From: an uncultured Verrucomicrobiae bacterium
GTDB lineage: Bacteria > Verrucomicrobiota > Verrucomicrobiia > Chthoniobacterales > JAFAMB01
NCBI GenBank assembly: GCA_963837955.1
Contig: CAWIPH010000002.1
Location: forward strand, 1,984,001 to 2,048,000
Reading direction: 5' to 3'
DNA: 64,000 nt
Shown here: positions 24,001-48,000 of the stretch, in pieces
Position numbering within the stretch: the stretch's first letter is position 1
How the letters are laid out: each line of letters starts with the position of its first letter
Made by a program: the position numbers

Positions 24001-27000
24001 AGTCCTAGACCGGAGAATGTTGATGGATTTGCGTAAAAACCTTTTCAGCGTTCCCCGAAGAGCCCGGTCGCTGGGATTTGCTATCTGCTATTTGCTATCT
24101 GCCATTTGCTATCCGCGAAGCGTAGGGGCGGGCGATATTCTCCGAGGGGGCTCATCGAATAGCTCGACCGGACCCACGTCCGCCGCCGTTGGCGGAAACC
24201 AGGCCGCGATGGCCCAGCTGAAGACCAATGCCAAAGACATACTGGCGCGAGCTACGCAGGCGTTACAATCGGCGCAAGCCATGCAACAGACCGCGCGCAA
24301 GCTGGCGCTAGCGGCACCGAACAATGTCCCGAACGGTTTGAAGCCAGGCGGGCTCCAGGTGGCCACCGGCAAGAACGCGTTTTGGCAGGGCGCCAATCAG
24401 CCTACGCAGTCCGTGGTCAATGGCCAAACCACCGTTACGATTCTACAGACGGCACCCCAAGCGATTCTCAATTGGCAAACATTTAATGTCGGAAGTAACA
24501 CCACCGCCTATTTCAACCAGAGCGCAGGCGGCAATTTCGCTAATACCTGGGTAGCCTTAAACCGGATCCTGGATCCTTCACGCGCCCCCAGCCAAATCCT
24601 GGGCTCGATCAAGGCTCAGGGACAGGTTTATCTCATTAACCAAAACGGCATCATTTTCGGTGGTTCATCCCAAGTTAACGTCAGCTCCCTCCTGGTTGCT
24701 GCCGCCATTATCACGAATAATCAGTTCACGACATCCGGTATCTACAGCCCGATAGTAACCGGCGTTTATCAGCCAAGTTTTACGGGCGGATCAGGTCCGG
24801 TCTTGATTCAATCCGGGGCGGAGATCACCACGAATGCGCCGCCAGGGATTGCCGATCGGGGCGGATCGGTCATCCTCCTTGGCCACTCGGTCGAGAACGA
24901 CGGTTCTATCACCACTACTAATGGCCAAACCCTTCTGGCAGCGGGAAAGAGTTTTAACTTGCTCCAAGGCTACAGCATCACACCGGCAAATAGTTCAAGC
25001 GGGAACCTGACCTCGACCACACTCGGGACCGAAGTCGCGGTTAGCCAGGGTGGAATCGCAGTGAATACCGGTCTGATCCAGGCAACCACGGGTGACATTA
25101 CCATGGTGGGCAGCCAGGTGACGCAGGGAGGGGTCGCTATCTCCACCAGTTCGGTGTCCCAACGGGGCACAATTCATCTCTTGACCCCGACGGTTGATCT
25201 AAACAGCGGCAAGACGTTTCCGGGCAGCAGCGTCACTTTGGCGCCCGGCAGTGTTACCCTCATTGAGCCGGACCCCAACTCCGGGAATGCGCTCAACCCG
25301 CAACGGACTGCCGCTTACGCCCAACAACTCGCCTACCTAACTAATGCCCAACTCAATGCTACCGCCGGACTCAACGATGACGTTTCGCTGCCGGACCGGA
25401 TCGGAATTTCGCGGATCGAGATCACGACCGGTGGCACAGTGGATTTCGCCAGCGGCTCGCTGACCAGTGCGACCGCGGGACAAATTGCCGTCAGTGCGGG
25501 GAAACAGGTTTTTGCCGGAACCGGAGCTGAGCTTAACGTCTCGGGACTGGTCGATGTTTCGCTGCCGATGTCGGCCAACAATCTCGCGGTTAGCATCCAA
25601 GGGTTCGAACTGCGCGATAATCCGCTCAACCGGGATTCGAAAACTCTCTTTAACAGTACGGTTTATGTCGATCTGGGGCAACTTCAGCAGGTACCGGCAA
25701 GCTCCGCGTATCGACAAAACCGGTTCTACACGGCGGGCGGCGCGTTGGAAGTCAGCGGCGAACTGAACAATGTCAACCATAGCATCAACGAATGGTCGAC
25801 CATTGGCGGCTCGATCACTTTATCAGCCGGTCAAGTCGTGGCGCAGAGCGGGTCAGTATTTAACATTGCGGGAGGGTCCATCCAGTACCAAGCCGGTTAT
25901 CTCAAGCAGAGTTACCTCATCGGCAGTGATGGCCACATCTACAATGTGAACACCGCCCCGGCCGGCATCAGCTATCTCGGGGTCTTTCAAGGCTTCATCG
26001 TCAATCATCCCCGTTGGAACGTGACCGAGAATTTCGCGAACATTATTGTCGATCCCAGTCAGATTTACCGGCCAGGTTATACCGTAGGTCGCGATGCTGG
26101 CAGTCTGACGATAAATGCGCCGACCTCGATCTTCGAAGGAACGATTGAAGCTGGAACGATCGACGGAATCCGCCAGAACGGGACCCGGCCATCGAGCGTG
26201 CCGGATCCGTTTCTTTTGCCTCAGACCACGGTTCCGCTCAACGGTTCTCTGACCGTTGGTACGAATTACCCACAAAAGCCGCAGCCGGCCTCTCAGCCGA
26301 TTGCTGTCTCTACCAGCAACGTTGTTTTTGCTAACGGTAACACCTCGATCGCTACCAATCTCAACCCGACGGCCCAGCTCGACCCAGCGTTGCTCGACAC
26401 GAATACGTTTTCCGCCCAGCGGATCAGCAGCGCTGCCCTGGGCGGTTTAACCGTCAATGTCCAGGCGCCAGTTCATCCCTCCACAATTCCCGGAAAGACG
26501 AATCAAGGCTACTTGACGATCAGCGCCCCGCTCCTTTTTGCGGACGGCGCTCAAGTGTCATTGACAGCGGCTAACGTCGTGATCAGTGGCGGTATCACCG
26601 CACCGAGCGGCTCTGTTACGATCAACGCGCTCTCTTATCAGGTAAGTCCTATTATCGTGACGTCTTTTACCATACCGCGTCCGATCGCCGGGATTACGCT
26701 GGAACCGGGCGCTGTGATTAACACCCAAGGCCTATTTACTAACGCGCTGCTCGATCCGTCGGATCTCACCGGTGAAGCGTTCATTAACGGCGGCAACGTG
26801 ACCCTGGCCACGAACCAGGGGATCACGCTGGCGGCCGGGAGTCTGATTGATGCTTCCTCGGGCGCGGCAATCTTGCCCAACCGCAAGACGCTCAATGGCG
26901 CCGGCGGGAATATCACGATTCTGGCGGATCAGGTCGGTAATGTGATAGCCCGGCCGTCAAAAAACCCGAATGTGGTGCTTACTCCTGATGTCGCACACCA

Positions 27001-45000: not shown

Positions 45001-48000
45001 TGAAACTTATTTGCAATCCGTTTCCAAGCCGGTCGACACGTATCCGAGCGACGCCGAGTTACAGACCGCCTATGAGACCAAGAAAGCTCAGTTACTTGTT
45101 CCCCGGCAGTTTCGGCTGGCCCAAATCTTTATCGCAATGCCGAAGACCGCTGATAAAGCCACGACAGATAAAGCCCAAACCAAACTAGAGGCCGTTAAAA
45201 AGAGTCTACACCAAACCGGTGCCGATTTCGCGGTGATCGCCAAGGCAAACAGTGAAGAAGCGGAGAGTGCGGCGCGCGGAGGTGAAATTGGTTGGCTTAC
45301 GGAAACCCAGGTGCAACCCGAGGTTCGACCCCAAGTGACCTCTCTGAGCAAGAACGCGGCGTCCGAACCAATCCGACTGGAAGACGGGTGGCACATTCTC
45401 AAGGTTCTTGATATCAAGGAGGCATACACTCCGACGCTCGACGAGATTCGCAGCCAGCTAGTACAGCAGCTTCGGAACGAAAAAACCCAAAGCAACAGTC
45501 AGGCATATCTGGCCAAGCTGTTGCAGCAAAGCCCCGTCGCGATCAACGAGCTAGCTCTCTCGAAAGTTTTGAACAAGACGGAGAAGTGAGGCGTGGTTGG
45601 TGAACGGTGATTGGTGATTGGTGAGCAGTAATCAGTAATCAGTAATCAGTAAGCAGTAAGCGGGGAGCGGAGAGCCGGGAGAGCCGGACGCCGGGGTATG
45701 CCGTTGCGTTTGTCGATCGTCACAACAAAACCGCCCGGCGTATATGGTCGGTGACGCGATGACCGATGACCAATCACCGTGCGCTACCACGGGGGGACCG
45801 AGTCCCTGGGGCTTCGCCCCTAGGCTATCCTAAAACGTGCCTTCAGCCCTAACTAACTAAGCTAATCACCGATCACCAATCATTCGCCATCCCAGCCCGC
45901 TGAGCGACGCGCCACACGAATGTAACAATCAAAATGCAGACGACTCGGTGTGTTGATGACAATGATAAGGGCAACGATTTCAACAAACTTTCGGTAACCG
46001 ACCTACACGTTTATGTGCACCCTGAAATCTTCCGATTTGTTTGGCGCGCATCGGAGCGCCTTTTCGACCGCTGCCGCGATCCTGGTCATGATTGGAGCTA
46101 TTTCCGTCGCTGCCGGGGGTGATGCCGGGAACATACTGCGCTCAAACCCTGTGGTGAATCCGAATCAGCAGGCGAATGCGATAAATCGTCTCGCGCAGAC
46201 AAATCAGGCGGTGCAAGCAATGCAGAATACGACTAATGCCCTTCGCAGCCTGAATAATCAGCAGACCAGCCCCATACGCGGCGGTGGCGTGATCGTCAAT
46301 GCGAGCCAGACCCCGAACGCGGTACCGAGCCAGATCCTGGCTTCGTTTCACGTCAATGGCAAAACGTATGTGATCGATCGCAACGGCATCATTTTCGGCG
46401 GTCCGCGGCAGATAAATACGCACGAGTTGACTGGTGCGGCCATGGGAGCAACGAGCGATTGGATGACGGAAGTCGCGAAAAAGCAACGCGCTGAGACTGC
46501 GCCGAAAAAGGTTCCGTCGCTCGTGAGAGCCGAGGTGCTGGGGTACGGCGCTAAGCCCTGACCGGGCGCTGGTGATTGGTGATCGGTAAGCAGTAAGCAG
46601 TCTTGCGCTCTTTCAGAGCGGACGCATTGGTTTGGCGCTACCCGGGGTTGCGCAAAGCCTCCACCCCGGGCTGAGTCCTCTAACGCCTTCCGACTTCGCC
46701 AACCATTAGCTATGGTTCGACGTCACAGAAGGGCTTCGTCGGACAGGTCGGCGTATCTGGTGTATCCGACAAGCCGGGCGGTTTTGTTGTGACCATTGAC
46801 AACGCGACGGCATACCCCTGGCATCCGGCTCTCGCTTACTCCTTACTCCTTTCTGCTTACCGATCACAAATCAACGATCACCGCTGCATCGTCACCGCGT
46901 CAGGGGTTGATACGCCGAAGGCGTCAAAGGACTCAGCCCGGGGTGGAGGCTTTGCGTAACCCCGGGTAGCCCAAAAAATGCGTCCGCTCTGAAAGAGCGA
47001 AAGAAGTCTTTAGGGAGCTCGGTTAAGGCAGCAACAATCCGTAGAAGCCAACGCTGGGTGAGAGGATCTAGAAGGGGCGTTCATGCCCTCGATGGAGCCG
47101 GTAATTGAGCGCCGTTCTGCCAGATGGTCTTGCGCTCTTTCAGAGCTTCAACCGGCTGCGCGGGTGTTTTTCACCGTAGGAACATTCATTTAGTGGCGTA
47201 GTGGAGTCTTCCTTCGCTAAGAGGAGGGATGCAACGAGGAGGCTTGGCAAGTAATCCGCTTGCCCAGTGGTGTTTAGCAGTAACTAAACCCGCCTTTCAG
47301 CATGGAATCAGACGCTACGATTTTTTCACTGGTGGCTGGAAAGCACTGTGGTGCTTGCAAGACCCCGTTTATGAGAATGTCTCGATCTTTCGCCGTCTGA
47401 GCCACGCCTCCTTCGTTGGCTAATCAACGAGAGAATGAAACAACACGAGAAGACAAAAACCAAGTCCGAAGCGCCAAAACCGTTACACGAGCCAGAGCCC
47501 GATGCGGCTGGCATTGATGTAGGAGCCAATGAAATCTGGGTTGCTGTAGCGCCTGATCGTAGCGAGAAGCCAATCAGAAGATTTGGTGCATTTACTCAGG
47601 AGCTCAAGGCCATTGTCCAGTGGCTGCGAGATTGCGGGATTCGTACCGTAGCAATGGAATCGACCGGTGTTTACTGGATTCCACTCTATCAGCTTCTGGC
47701 CGATGCCGGACTGAAGGTCTGTTTAGTCAACGCCCGGCATGTCAAAAATGTACCGGGTCGCAAAAGTGACGTGGGCGACTGTCAATGGTTGCAGTACCTC
47801 CACAGCGTGGGTCTATTGCGGGCTTCTTATCGGCCCGATCAAGCCATCTGTGCCGCGCGGAGCATTTACCGCTATCGGCAAAATCTGCTCACCCAGGCTG
47901 CTCAGCATCTCCAGCATATGCAGGCGGCCTTGGATCAAATGAATATTAAGCTCCACCACGTCATCGACGATCTGACGGGCATGACGGGGCTGGCGATCAT

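What a model noticed while it worked through the whole genome (the two positions that open the first line are those of the whole stretch)
24017..45589. Giant two-partner-secretion protein hard-wired to its own ExbB-ExbD-TonB-type motor (DUF2341-LamG-ExbB cassette)
One co-directional gene row encodes a 4089-aa TpsA exoprotein (TPS domain, C-terminal DUF3739), its TpsB outer-membrane partner, an ExbB whose periplasmic N-terminus carries DUF2341 and a LamG domain, ExbD, a TonB-C protein, a Porin_5 barrel, a coiled-coil periplasmic protein and a parvulin; the same cassette recurs in Verrucomicrobiota, Alpha-, Beta-, Gammaproteobacteria and Thermodesulfobacteriota. I read it as a two-partner secretion system that is driven or gated by a dedicated proton-motive-force motor, whereas TPS export across the outer membrane is held to need no energy source. 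New: a function for the orphan DUF2341-ExbB motors and an energy-coupled class of TPS systems.
Evidence so far: Calls 17,142: g02510 TPS 127-389 + DUF3739 3927-4037; g02513 POTRA_2+ShlB; g02514 DUF2341 91-157, Laminin_G_3 203-345, MotA_ExbB 489-596; g02515 ExbD; g02516 TonB_2; g02517 Porin_5; g02518 (signal peptide + coiled coil, call 147); g02519 rotamase; gaps of 3-101 bp from g02513 to g02519. Call 138 (neighbours.tsv): of 2807-2905 genomes that bear DUF2341 and POTRA_2/ShlB anywhere, 1927-1931 (66-69%) have them within two genes (137-139 in this order); DUF2341 lies next to ExbD in 2814 genomes. Calls 144,145: 51 loci with relatives of g02514 (36-72% identity) were examined; in the 40 loci longer than 15 kb tblastn (E<=1e-6) finds ExbD in 40, Porin_5 in 39, g02518 in 32, TonB in 27, the TpsA C-ter [...]
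(Added by a program. Inside this text positions count along the whole contig: contig position 1,984,001 is position 1 of the stretch shown here. "Call 12" and the like, gene names such as g00115 and contig names such as C1 are that model's own, and its searches are not shown. The text may have been shortened before it was handed on; [...] marks where a part breaks off. The agent that wrote the report below was given it as the finding of a first reader that could run no searches.)

Follow-up and report, generated by a model that had tools for sequence, protein, structure and literature searches.

The report
Giant secreted fibre with dedicated motor
This bacterium carries a gene cluster, already known but unexplained in Pseudomonas aeruginosa, that ties a 4,089-residue secreted fibre protein and its export pore to a private proton-driven motor and a special porin; what the motor does to the fibre is still open but can be tested directly.

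Summary
The gene row is real and lies as described. It is not a new kind of locus. It matches, gene for gene, the P. aeruginosa PA0690-PA0699 cluster (pdtA, pdtB, exbB2, exbD2, tonB4, PA0696 porin, PA0697, PA0699 PPIase). That cluster has been in print since 2009, is co-transcribed there, and its motor is still called uncharacterized. This scan met the same cluster twice before on other DNA. The functional link holds up well. In two samples of about 300 genomes each, every genome with a DUF3739-type TpsA also had the DUF2341-ExbB gene, once contig breaks were resolved (9 of 9 and 17 of 17). Full-length Porin_5 was found only in those genomes. There is no direct support for the motor powering export through TpsB, and TpsB has no conserved TonB-box-like N-terminus. 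Two candidate handles were found: a conserved strand motif at the extreme TpsA C-terminus and a TonB-box-like strand on the periplasmic arm of Porin_5. Porin_5 models as a roughly 16-strand porin, not a plugged receptor. My best reading is that the motor acts after translocation, on the fibre's tail and/or the porin arm. This is inference.

The parts
24017..36286 (+). tpsA: 4089-aa filamentous-haemagglutinin-family exoprotein (TPS domain aa 127-389; DUF3739 aa 3927-4037)
   Evidence: TIGR01901 NPXG domain, E 2.6e-19
36245..36283 (+). Extreme C-terminal strand motif of TpsA (aa 4077-4089, SIITVEVLGYGGG), after a low-complexity linker; candidate handle for the transducer
   Evidence: Alignment of 31-32 TpsA C-termini. 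A motif of the form hydrophobic-hydrophobic-[ST]-V-[ED]-V-hydrophobic-G-[FYL]-G, or a close variant, lies 2-63 residues from the end in essentially all of them. Its function is inferred.
36287..36940 (.). 654-bp tpsA-tpsB spacer filled with copies of a dispersed repeat (core CTCACGCAAAGACG) and a 57-nt inverted-repeat pair; contains the two small opposite-strand ORFs
   Evidence: the 14-mer occurs 150 times in the 5.62-Mb genome, 5 of them here; no Pfam match for the small ORFs
36941..38728 (+). tpsB: Omp85-type transporter (POTRA_2 105-178, ShlB barrel 240-556). The N-terminus before POTRA1 is not conserved.
38752..40614 (+). Fused stator subunit: signal peptide, DUF2341 beta-sandwich, LamG lectin-like domain (both periplasmic), then a TolQ/ExbB-type membrane domain
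   Evidence: AF2 model mean pLDDT 83; the membrane part matches TolQ best (TM 0.80-0.85) and the periplasmic part matches lectin-like jelly rolls; best NCBIfam match is TolQ, below its cut-off
40644..41048 (+). exbD/tolR-type subunit
41149..41865 (+). TonB-type transducer: N-terminal membrane helix, proline-rich spacer, glycine-rich linker, C-terminal TonB_2 domain
   Evidence: the C-terminal domain profile hits HasB (E 0.0026) and TonB chains (E about 0.01) in the PDB
41901..43898 (+). Porin_5 barrel with a periplasmic N-terminal arm of about 190 residues
   Evidence: AF2 model; Foldseek top hits are OmpM1, MOMP, DcaP, OprB and AlgE
42405..42437 (+). TonB-box-like strand on the porin arm (aa 169-179, DDTVRVTYIPE; family consensus GVVRVPYIPE; Y176 conserved in at least 90%), flanked by disorder
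   Evidence: The resemblance to TonB boxes is recalled, not tested.
43898..44548 (+). Periplasmic coiled-coil protein (signal peptide plus heptad-rich helix); counterpart of the hypothetical protein after the porin in the Klebsiella and Methylosinus plasmid loci (the position PA0697 holds in PAO1)
   Evidence: (35 loci hit). The Atlas and PDB searches were uninformative.
44591..45589 (+). Secreted parvulin-type peptidyl-prolyl isomerase (SurA/PrsA-like); likely periplasmic chaperone
   Evidence: present in 9 of 40 long loci and in the plasmid loci
46013..46561 (+). 182-aa collapsed second TpsA: N-terminus and start of the TPS domain joined in frame to the C-terminal motif (…SLVRAEVLGYGAKP). 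It sits where TpsA lies in most related Verrucomicrobiota.
47435..48844 (+). IS110-family transposase next to the remnant

Best explanation
This is a verrucomicrobial copy of the PdtA/PdtB-ExbB2-ExbD2-TonB4-PA0696-PA0697-PA0699 module of P. aeruginosa. It is one horizontally mobile unit built from three sub-modules plus a chaperone:

1. A two-partner secretion pair (TpsA, TpsB).
2. A Tol-like proton-driven stator. Each large subunit carries a periplasmic DUF2341 and lectin-like crown. It is paired with ExbD and a TonB-type transducer.
3. A porin-type barrel with a long periplasmic arm, plus a periplasmic coiled-coil protein.
4. A parvulin chaperone.

Identity with the P. aeruginosa module: confidence about 0.9.

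Mechanism (inferred; the confidence value of 0.35 refers to this):

- TpsA crosses the outer membrane through TpsB in the ordinary way.
- The motor is not a pump for that step. It acts afterwards.
- The TonB-type C-terminal domain captures, by strand pairing, a short box held on a disordered tether. The candidates are the extreme C-terminus of TpsA and the N-terminal arm of Porin_5.
- Proton-motive force is then used to hold, tension, retract or release the cell-proximal end of the fibre at or through the porin. This would resemble the way Tol/Ton systems pull on tethered epitopes of colicins threaded through porins (recalled).
For: Shown:

- Domain content and tight spacing of the row.
- A homologous Klebsiella plasmid locus, with the fused ExbB 40.8% identical over 94%, is annotated with the same order that PMC7035377 lists for PA0674-PA0701: receptor-like protein, sigma factor, anti-sigma factor, TpsA, TpsB, ExbB, ExbD, TonB, porin, hypothetical, YbjN, PPIase, hypothetical, LysR. 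A Methylosinus plasmid locus carries the same genes with tpsA last.
- One promoter drives pdtB through PA0701 in PAO1.
- Verrucomicrobiota sample: 9 of 301 genomes have DUF3739. All 9 have the DUF2341-ExbB. In 8 it lies 3-18 kb away on the same contig. The ninth has two cassette copies cut inside exbD at contig starts.
- Second sample, the class of a Thiobacillus genome: 17 of 300 scored genomes have DUF3739, and 16 of those have a DUF2341 match. The 17th has the ExbB gene starting at its contig end.
- Full-length Porin_5 (E<=1e-140) occurs in 16 of the 301 genomes of that sample. All 16 are among those 17.
- The sub-modules stay together in three layouts.
- TpsB lacks a conserved N-terminal box.
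- TpsA has a conserved terminal strand motif behind a low-complexity linker.
- The Porin_5 arm has a conserved strand between disordered stretches.
- The barrel is porin-like, with about 16 long strands by my count of the DSSP list and no plug.
- The transducer has the TonB layout and its nearest solved relatives are HasB and TonB.
- The stator is closest to TolQ.

Inferred: that either motif binds the transducer; the topology of the TpsA C-terminus; what the force achieves.
Against: - No experiment or prediction here links the transducer to either motif.
- Gene order and co-occurrence cannot tell physical coupling from a shared task.
- An open porin needs no energy, so a motor acting on it has no precedent that I know of.
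- Other TpsA proteins of similar size are exported without any motor. TPS translocation has also been reconstituted without an energy source (review PMC5422565, passages).
- Paralogous DUF2341-ExbB/ExbD(/TonB) sets exist away from any porin or TpsA in 2 of the genomes examined (G482, G510).
- In PAO1, transposon mutants in tpsA, tpsB, PA0695 and PA0696 showed no change in VreI-induced zebrafish virulence. That gives no functional handle.
- The terminal TpsA motif could simply be a folding cap of the beta-helix.
Confidence: 0.35

Rival explanations
1. Energised uptake (Hxu logic). The motor opens or drives the Porin_5 barrel to import a scarce nutrient, plausibly a phosphorus compound, that the surface fibre captures or liberates. 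TpsA and TpsB are only the bait arm.
For: - Porin_5 follows the transducer gene in the great majority of loci and is present in 40 of 40 long loci.
- Its arm carries a TonB-box-like strand.
- Full-length Porin_5 was not found outside cassette genomes in the sample.
- In P. aeruginosa the cluster belongs to the phosphate-starvation/VreI regulon. PdtA, PA0696 and PA0698 are among the proteins most enriched under phosphate limitation.
- HxuABC is a precedent for TpsA, TpsB and a TonB-dependent importer working together.
Against: - The barrel models as a porin of about 16 strands without a plug, unlike any TonB-dependent transporter.
- This model gives no reason for the conserved TpsA C-terminal motif.
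- No phosphate genes lie in the window. An E. coli-type Pho box scan was at chance level.
Confidence: 0.25
2. One reading: the motor supplies energy for, or gates, translocation of the 4089-aa TpsA through TpsB. This would be an energy-coupled type Vb system.
For: - tpsB directly precedes the stator gene in 12 of 40 long loci and here, and shares its promoter in PAO1.
- The one-to-one association with one TpsA class.
- The mature N-terminus of this TpsB shows no conserved helix of the kind that plugs FhaC (recalled). The pore might therefore be gated in another way.
Against: - No conserved transducer-binding box on TpsB.
- Porin_5 and the coiled-coil protein are left without a role.
- TPS export works in liposomes without energy.
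- In 26 of 40 long loci tpsB is not next to the motor. It sits upstream of tpsA in the classical order.
Confidence: 0.15
3. Signalling: the motor energises a cell-surface signalling relay (a VreA-like receptor fragment, anti-sigma factor and ECF sigma factor) that reports contact sensed by the fibre.
For: The Klebsiella and Methylosinus plasmid loci, and PAO1, carry the receptor-like protein, sigma factor and anti-sigma factor next to the cassette. Classical signalling of this type needs TonB (introduction of PMC2729926).
Against: tblastn with the Klebsiella and Methylosinus regulator proteins found none in the window's genome, and found relatives in only 1 of 51 loci (L019). The core cassette therefore works without them. 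In PAO1, VreA appeared dispensable for sigma-VreI activation (discussion passage).
Confidence: 0.05
4. Mere co-regulation: the sub-modules serve separate envelope tasks under the same stress and are clustered only for shared control.
For: Nothing here shows physical contact. The PAO1 mutants gave no common phenotype.
Against: - Near-perfect three-way co-occurrence across two phyla.
- Transfer as a unit onto plasmids.
- The clustering persists through rearrangements.
Confidence: 0.1

Closest known systems
P. aeruginosa PAO1 PA0690-PA0699 (pdtA, phdA, pdtB, exbB2, exbD2, tonB4, PA0696, PA0697, PA0698, PA0699); sigma-VreI/PhoB regulon
   Same: Same gene content and order: giant TpsA, TpsB, ExbB, ExbD, TonB, porin, signal-peptide protein, PpiC-type isomerase. 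This rests on the gene tables in PMC7035377 and PMC2729926 and on a sequence-homologous Klebsiella plasmid locus with that annotation. tpsA stands apart from a tpsB-to-isomerase block, as in PAO1, where two promoters were mapped.
   Different: There are no VreA/VreI/VreR regulators, no phdA, and no YbjN or LysR genes here. Phosphate control is not shown. I had no PAO1 sequence, so orthology rests on the plasmid intermediate and on published annotation. Whether PA0693 carries DUF2341/LamG and PA0690 carries DUF3739 is inferred, not seen.
HxuABC haem-haemopexin system of Haemophilus influenzae
   Same: A TpsA/TpsB pair is genetically joined to a proton-motive-force-dependent outer-membrane component.
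   Different: HxuC is a plugged TonB-dependent transporter served by the general TonB. Here the barrel is porin-like and the cassette brings its own motor.
Tol-Pal system and group A colicin import through porins (recalled)
   Same: The stator is closest to TolQ/TolR by profile and by fold. A coiled-coil periplasmic protein ends the row, as CpoB does in tol-pal (recalled). A disordered tether with a short box next to a porin recalls colicins threading OmpF to reach Tol proteins (recalled).
   Different: No TolB propeller or Pal lipoprotein is present. The transducer has a proline-rich TonB-type spacer rather than TolA's long helix. All NCBIfam Tol scores are below their cut-offs.
FhaB and CdiA: TpsA proteins whose C-terminal part stays periplasmic during a regulated pause (recalled)
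   Same: A giant TpsA whose conserved C-terminal module differs from the shaft, and an accessory parvulin as with Bordetella Par27 (recalled).
   Different: Neither of those systems has a motor, a dedicated porin or DUF3739.
Motor-coupled surface machines: the type IX GldLM motor with the SprB adhesin, Myxococcus Agl-Glt, Oar-dependent PopC secretion (recalled)
   Same: A MotA/ExbB-family motor whose output is felt at the outer membrane on a secreted or surface protein.
   Different: Unrelated outer-membrane parts. None involves a type V system.

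Membership tests
Two-partner secretion (type Vb) | Exoprotein with an N-terminal TPS domain | tested here: met
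   PF05860 aa 127-389, E 1.6e-21; TIGR01901, E 2.6e-19
Two-partner secretion (type Vb) | Omp85-type transporter with POTRA domains and a ShlB/FhaC barrel, encoded nearby | tested here: met
   POTRA_2 105-178 and ShlB 240-556; 654 bp downstream of tpsA
Two-partner secretion (type Vb) | Export across the outer membrane without an external energy source | not testable with these tools
   This is the claim at issue and needs experiment.
Ton system (ExbB-ExbD-TonB with a TonB-dependent transporter) | ExbB/ExbD-type stator and a TonB with membrane anchor, proline-rich spacer and C-terminal domain | tested here: met
Ton system (ExbB-ExbD-TonB with a TonB-dependent transporter) | Client is a 22-strand barrel with a plug domain and an N-terminal TonB box | tested here: not met
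   The Porin_5 model has about 16 long strands and no plug. Its best fold matches are general and specific porins. A box-like strand exists on its arm, but binding is untested.
Tol-Pal system | TolQ/TolR equivalogs | tested here: inconclusive
   Best NCBIfam matches are TolQ (125 bits, cut-off 221) and TolR (93.6, cut-off 127.3). The fold is closest to TolQ.
Tol-Pal system | TolB and Pal encoded with the motor | tested here: not met
   The row holds no such domains.
PdtAB-ExbB2D2-TonB4-PA0696-PA0699 cluster (PUMA3 regulon) | Gene content and order | tested here: met
PdtAB-ExbB2D2-TonB4-PA0696-PA0699 cluster (PUMA3 regulon) | Adjacent VreA/VreI/VreR regulators | tested here: not met
   tblastn with the plasmid homologues found none in this genome.
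PdtAB-ExbB2D2-TonB4-PA0696-PA0699 cluster (PUMA3 regulon) | Induction by phosphate starvation | tested here: inconclusive
   A scan with a recalled E. coli Pho-box pattern gave 3 matches against 3.65 expected, none near the promoters. No RNA run was listed.
HxuABC-type TPS plus receptor | A TonB-dependent transporter gene in the operon | tested here: not met

The most novel reading that the evidence does not exclude
A type Vb secretion system that is mechanically wired to the inner membrane. A private TonB-type transducer grips a box at the C-terminal end of a 4,000-residue surface fibre, directly or through a dedicated porin. Proton-motive force can then pull on, retain or release an extracellular adhesin. 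This would be the first energy-coupled type V system and would give a function to the DUF2341-ExbB motors.
Probability: 0.3. Interest if true: 0.85.

Novelty: new member of a known kind. Interest (0 to 1): 0.6.

Why it matters
Type V secretion is the textbook case of outer-membrane export without an energy source. The fused DUF2341-ExbB stators are still listed as of unknown function in a 2025 survey of the family (PMC12505986). This cluster joins the two with a one-to-one fidelity that is hard to explain without a shared mechanism. It also exists in genetically tractable Pseudomonas strains, where the motor is still called uncharacterized. The motifs found here, the TpsA tail and the porin arm, turn a vague gene-neighbourhood idea into specific binding and deletion experiments.

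Tried and rejected
- Complex prediction of the TpsA C-terminal 260 residues, Porin_5 residues 66-235 and the transducer C-terminal domain as partner: no verdict (scores 0.11 and 0.10, mark 0.32; controls not run). It counts neither way.
- RNA runs for the row: none was listed.
- Atlas look-up of the coiled-coil protein: only unnamed clusters. Its PDB sequence search gave nothing below E 0.2.
- Promoter and terminator scans upstream of tpsA and in the tpsA-tpsB spacer: counts within what shuffles give.
- Rfam on the window: one tRNA only.
- Pho-box pattern: at chance level.
- Search for VreA, sigma and anti-sigma homologues: none in this genome.
- A direct sequence comparison with PAO1 was not possible. 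No named P. aeruginosa sequence was within reach, and the single genome-contig scan returned closer relatives only.
- Faure et al. 2014 (Microbiology 160:1940) is not held. I could not see whether exbB2 or tonB4 mutants were tested for PdtA secretion.
- Orphan DUF2341-ExbB paralogues in G482 and G510 sit among unrelated genes (V-type ATPase and others) and gave no clue.
- A mirror-tree co-evolution test was considered and dropped as too weak with about 25 related loci.
- The paper on colicin M-like bacteriocins that topped one search proved irrelevant.

Full report
**What is there**

- a 4089-aa TpsA (TPS domain 127-389, DUF3739 3927-4037);
- a TpsB (POTRA_2, ShlB);
- a 620-aa protein with DUF2341, a LamG-type domain and a MotA/ExbB membrane domain;
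- ExbD;
- a TonB_2 protein;
- a Porin_5 protein (E 5.6e-203);
- a protein with no family match, a signal peptide and a coiled coil;
- a parvulin.

From tpsB onward the gaps are 23, 29, 100, 35, -1 and 42 bp, taking the coiled-coil gene to start at the ATG at 43898.

tpsA is separated from tpsB by 654 bp. That spacer holds five copies of a 14-base core that occurs 150 times in the 5.62-Mb genome, plus a 57-nt inverted repeat. The small opposite-strand ORFs inside it have no family match and no conserved counterpart. I regard them as not genes.

G+C content is even across the region. The flanks hold ordinary metabolic genes upstream. Downstream lie an IS110 transposase, two TIR-TPR proteins and a Mutator-family transposase.

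**It is a known cluster**

The literature search showed that P. aeruginosa PAO1 has the same row. PA0690 (pdtA), PA0692 (pdtB), PA0693/PA0694 (exbB2, exbD2), PA0695 (tonB4), PA0696 (putative porin), PA0697, PA0698 (YbjN family) and PA0699 (PpiC-type isomerase) all belong to the sigma-VreI/PhoB regulon. [quoted passage not shown]

Llamas et al. 2009 had already noted that the regulators are accompanied by TPS, ExbBD and PA0696 homologues in several other genera (passages of PMC2729926). One promoter transcribes phdA, pdtB, exbB2D2, tonB4 and PA0696-PA0701, and another transcribes pdtA alone (passage of PMC4971064). That matches the split seen in the window.

I could not align PAO1 itself. However, a Klebsiella quasipneumoniae plasmid locus whose fused ExbB is 40.8% identical over 94% of the window's protein is annotated with exactly that order, regulators and LysR gene included. 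A Methylosinus plasmid shows the same set with tpsA last. The coiled-coil protein is the homologue of the hypothetical protein that follows the porin in both plasmids, and it hits 35 loci.

Two earlier reports of this scan, on other genomes, reached the same identification.

**How tight the association is**

The search for related loci gave 54 loci, 51 of them with a true relative of the fused ExbB.

Among the 40 loci of at least 15 kb, tblastn found ExbD in 40, Porin_5 in 40, the coiled-coil protein in 33, TonB in 28, some part of a TpsA in 38, TpsB in 12 and the parvulin in 9. The transducer and the coiled-coil protein diverge fast, so those two counts are floors.

The two loci without a TpsA nearby (L018, L024) come from genomes that each hold one DUF3739 TpsA elsewhere.

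Three layouts occur:

- tpsB directly before the stator, with tpsA downstream, upstream or divergent (12 of 40).
- The tpsA 3' end directly before the stator (26 of 40). In 5 of 5 genomes checked, tpsB then sits just upstream of tpsA.
- A split form: stator-exbD-tonB, then tpsB, tpsA, then porin and coiled coil, with chaperone-like (OmpH), OmpA-family and sulfotransferase genes between them.

Whole-genome sampling gives the strongest figure.

- In 301 genomes of the window's phylum, DUF3739 occurs in 9. All 9 have the DUF2341-ExbB. In 8 it lies 3-18 kb away on the same contig. The ninth has two cassette copies whose contigs begin inside exbD.
- In 300 scored genomes of the class that holds a Thiobacillus genome, DUF3739 occurs in 17. 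Sixteen have DUF2341. The seventeenth has the ExbB gene starting at its contig end.
- Full-length Porin_5 occurs in 16 of that sample's 301 genomes, and all 16 are among those 17.

DUF2341 alone is much wider: 41 and 22 genomes, mostly in other large proteins. Two genomes have an extra DUF2341-ExbB/ExbD set away from any porin or TpsA.

These genomes are related to each other, so the counts are not independent trials. The pattern nevertheless holds in two phyla, and the cassette also rides on plasmids.

In 8 Gallionellaceae-type loci the cassette is followed by a lytic transglycosylase and type II secretion genes. This recalls the Hxc system next to pdtA in PAO1.

**Anatomy bearing on mechanism**

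*Fused stator.* It models with confidence (mean pLDDT 83) as signal peptide, a beta-sandwich (50-141), a lectin-like jelly roll (about 160-340) and then the membrane helices.

- Its membrane part superposes best on TolQ (TM 0.80-0.85), ahead of ExbB (0.74).
- Its periplasmic part superposes on carbohydrate-binding and lectin-like modules.
- NCBIfam likewise ranks TolQ and TolR first, below their cut-offs.

*Transducer.* It has a membrane helix, a proline-rich spacer, a glycine-rich linker and a C-terminal domain of about 85 residues. The nearest solved relatives of that domain are HasB and TonB (E 0.003-0.016).

*Porin_5.* The model (mean pLDDT 68) has about 16 long strands by my count of the DSSP list, and no plug. 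N-terminal helices lie at 72-116, a disordered stretch at 118-171 and a helix at 179-199.

- Foldseek puts OmpM1, MOMP, DcaP, OprB and AlgE first.
- It is therefore not a TonB-dependent transporter.
- Its arm has two conserved elements: a helix (…NLINRLVQ-GVLT-EDA…) and a strand, DDTVRVTYIPE here and GVVRVPYIPE in the consensus, with Y176 conserved in at least 90%.
- The strand resembles, from memory, the D-T-x-x-V-T-A type of TonB box.

*TpsB.* The stretch between signal peptide and POTRA1 is 20-45 residues, proline-rich and unconserved. I see no box there, nor a conserved helix like the FhaC plug (recalled).

*TpsA.* DUF3739 looks like further beta-helix repeats. It is followed by a low-complexity linker and a sharply conserved terminal strand, …SIITVEVLGYGGG here and F-[KR]-P-[ST]-F-I-S-V-E-V-L-G-F-G in many Betaproteobacteria. 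The strand lies 2-63 residues from the end in essentially all 31 sequences.

*Remnant.* The same ending survives in a 182-aa ORF at 46013-46561. That ORF joins a TpsA N-terminus (43% identical to residues 179-238 of the intact protein) in frame to a C-terminus (42% identical to residues 4053-4087). It is a collapsed second tpsA, sitting in the slot where related Verrucomicrobiota keep theirs.

**Reading**

The unit is one machine. I think it least likely that the motor pushes TpsA through TpsB, for three reasons:

- TpsB offers no handle.
- Two invariant parts would be left idle.
- TPS export needs no energy in vitro.

The two conserved strands on flexible tethers are what a TonB/TolA-type domain normally seizes. 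I therefore commit, at about 0.35, to a step after translocation. The transducer takes hold of the TpsA tail and/or the porin arm. The Tol-like motor then uses proton-motive force to hold, tension, retract or release the cell-proximal end of the fibre, with the parvulin as escort.

The rivals, with my odds:

- Energised uptake through the porin with the fibre as bait: 0.25.
- Co-regulation only: 0.1.
- Signalling: 0.05, because the regulators are missing here.

All of these are inference. The one attempt at a complex prediction gave no verdict.

**Novelty and literature**

The locus is a new member of a known, unexplained cluster.

- Seven full-text searches found no paper that proposes energy coupling of a TPS system, nor one that characterises tonB4.
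- The only paper holding DUF3739 is unrelated.
- Only an mBio 2025 paper and its preprint name DUF2341 on stator subunits, and they leave its function open.
- The library lacks most subscription journals, and Faure et al. 2014 was not available.
- For each paper cited I saw passages found by term search, not the whole text.

Noticed in passing
window 46013-46561: A 182-aa ORF that is a collapsed second TpsA. The signal peptide and start of the TPS domain are joined in frame to the last 35 or so residues, including the conserved terminal motif. It sits downstream of the parvulin, where related Verrucomicrobiota keep tpsA, and is followed by an IS110 transposase (47435-48844).
   Followed up: partly
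window 36287-36940: The tpsA-tpsB spacer is packed with a dispersed repeat. The 14-base core occurs 150 times in the genome and 5 times here, and there is a 57-nt inverted repeat 298 nt apart. It looks like a REP- or MITE-like element. A short match also lies downstream of the cassette in the closest relative, L002.
   Followed up: partly
window 49214-51118 and 51364-53538: Two adjacent genes for TIR-domain proteins with long TPR arrays, followed on the opposite strand by a TPR-sensor/nucleotide-cyclase protein (53535-55664). This may be a defence or signalling island next to transposases.
   Followed up: no
L020, L022, L027-L029, L031-L033 (about 15-21 kb in each locus): In Gallionellaceae-type loci the cassette is followed by a lytic transglycosylase and type II secretion genes (GspG, GspF, GspE, PilN-like). 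This echoes the Hxc type II system beside pdtA in P. aeruginosa.
   Followed up: partly
L071/L072 (G315) and L069/L070 (G534): A split layout in which an OmpH/Skp-like chaperone, an OmpA-family protein and a TPR-sulfotransferase lie between the sub-modules. L018 has a TPR-glycosyltransferase upstream of tpsB. These may be enzymes that modify TpsA.
   Followed up: no
L063/L064 (G482) and L065/L066 (G510): Extra DUF2341-LamG-ExbB plus ExbD (plus TonB_2 in G482) sets with no porin, coiled-coil protein or TpsA nearby. It is unknown whether they serve the cassette in trans or have another client.
   Followed up: partly
L062 13127-13858 (Methylosinus plasmid): The VreA-like 'secretin and TonB N-terminal domain' protein has a stretch about 40% identical to the C-terminal domain of the window's transducer (72 residues, E 2e-9). 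The receptor-like regulator may therefore itself carry a TonB-type domain.
   Followed up: no
L004 (record titled Leifsonia xyli MAG): The locus is nearly identical to L003 (Ancylobacter MAG) from the same study series. An actinobacterial label on a Gram-negative envelope cassette suggests a binning error.
   Followed up: no
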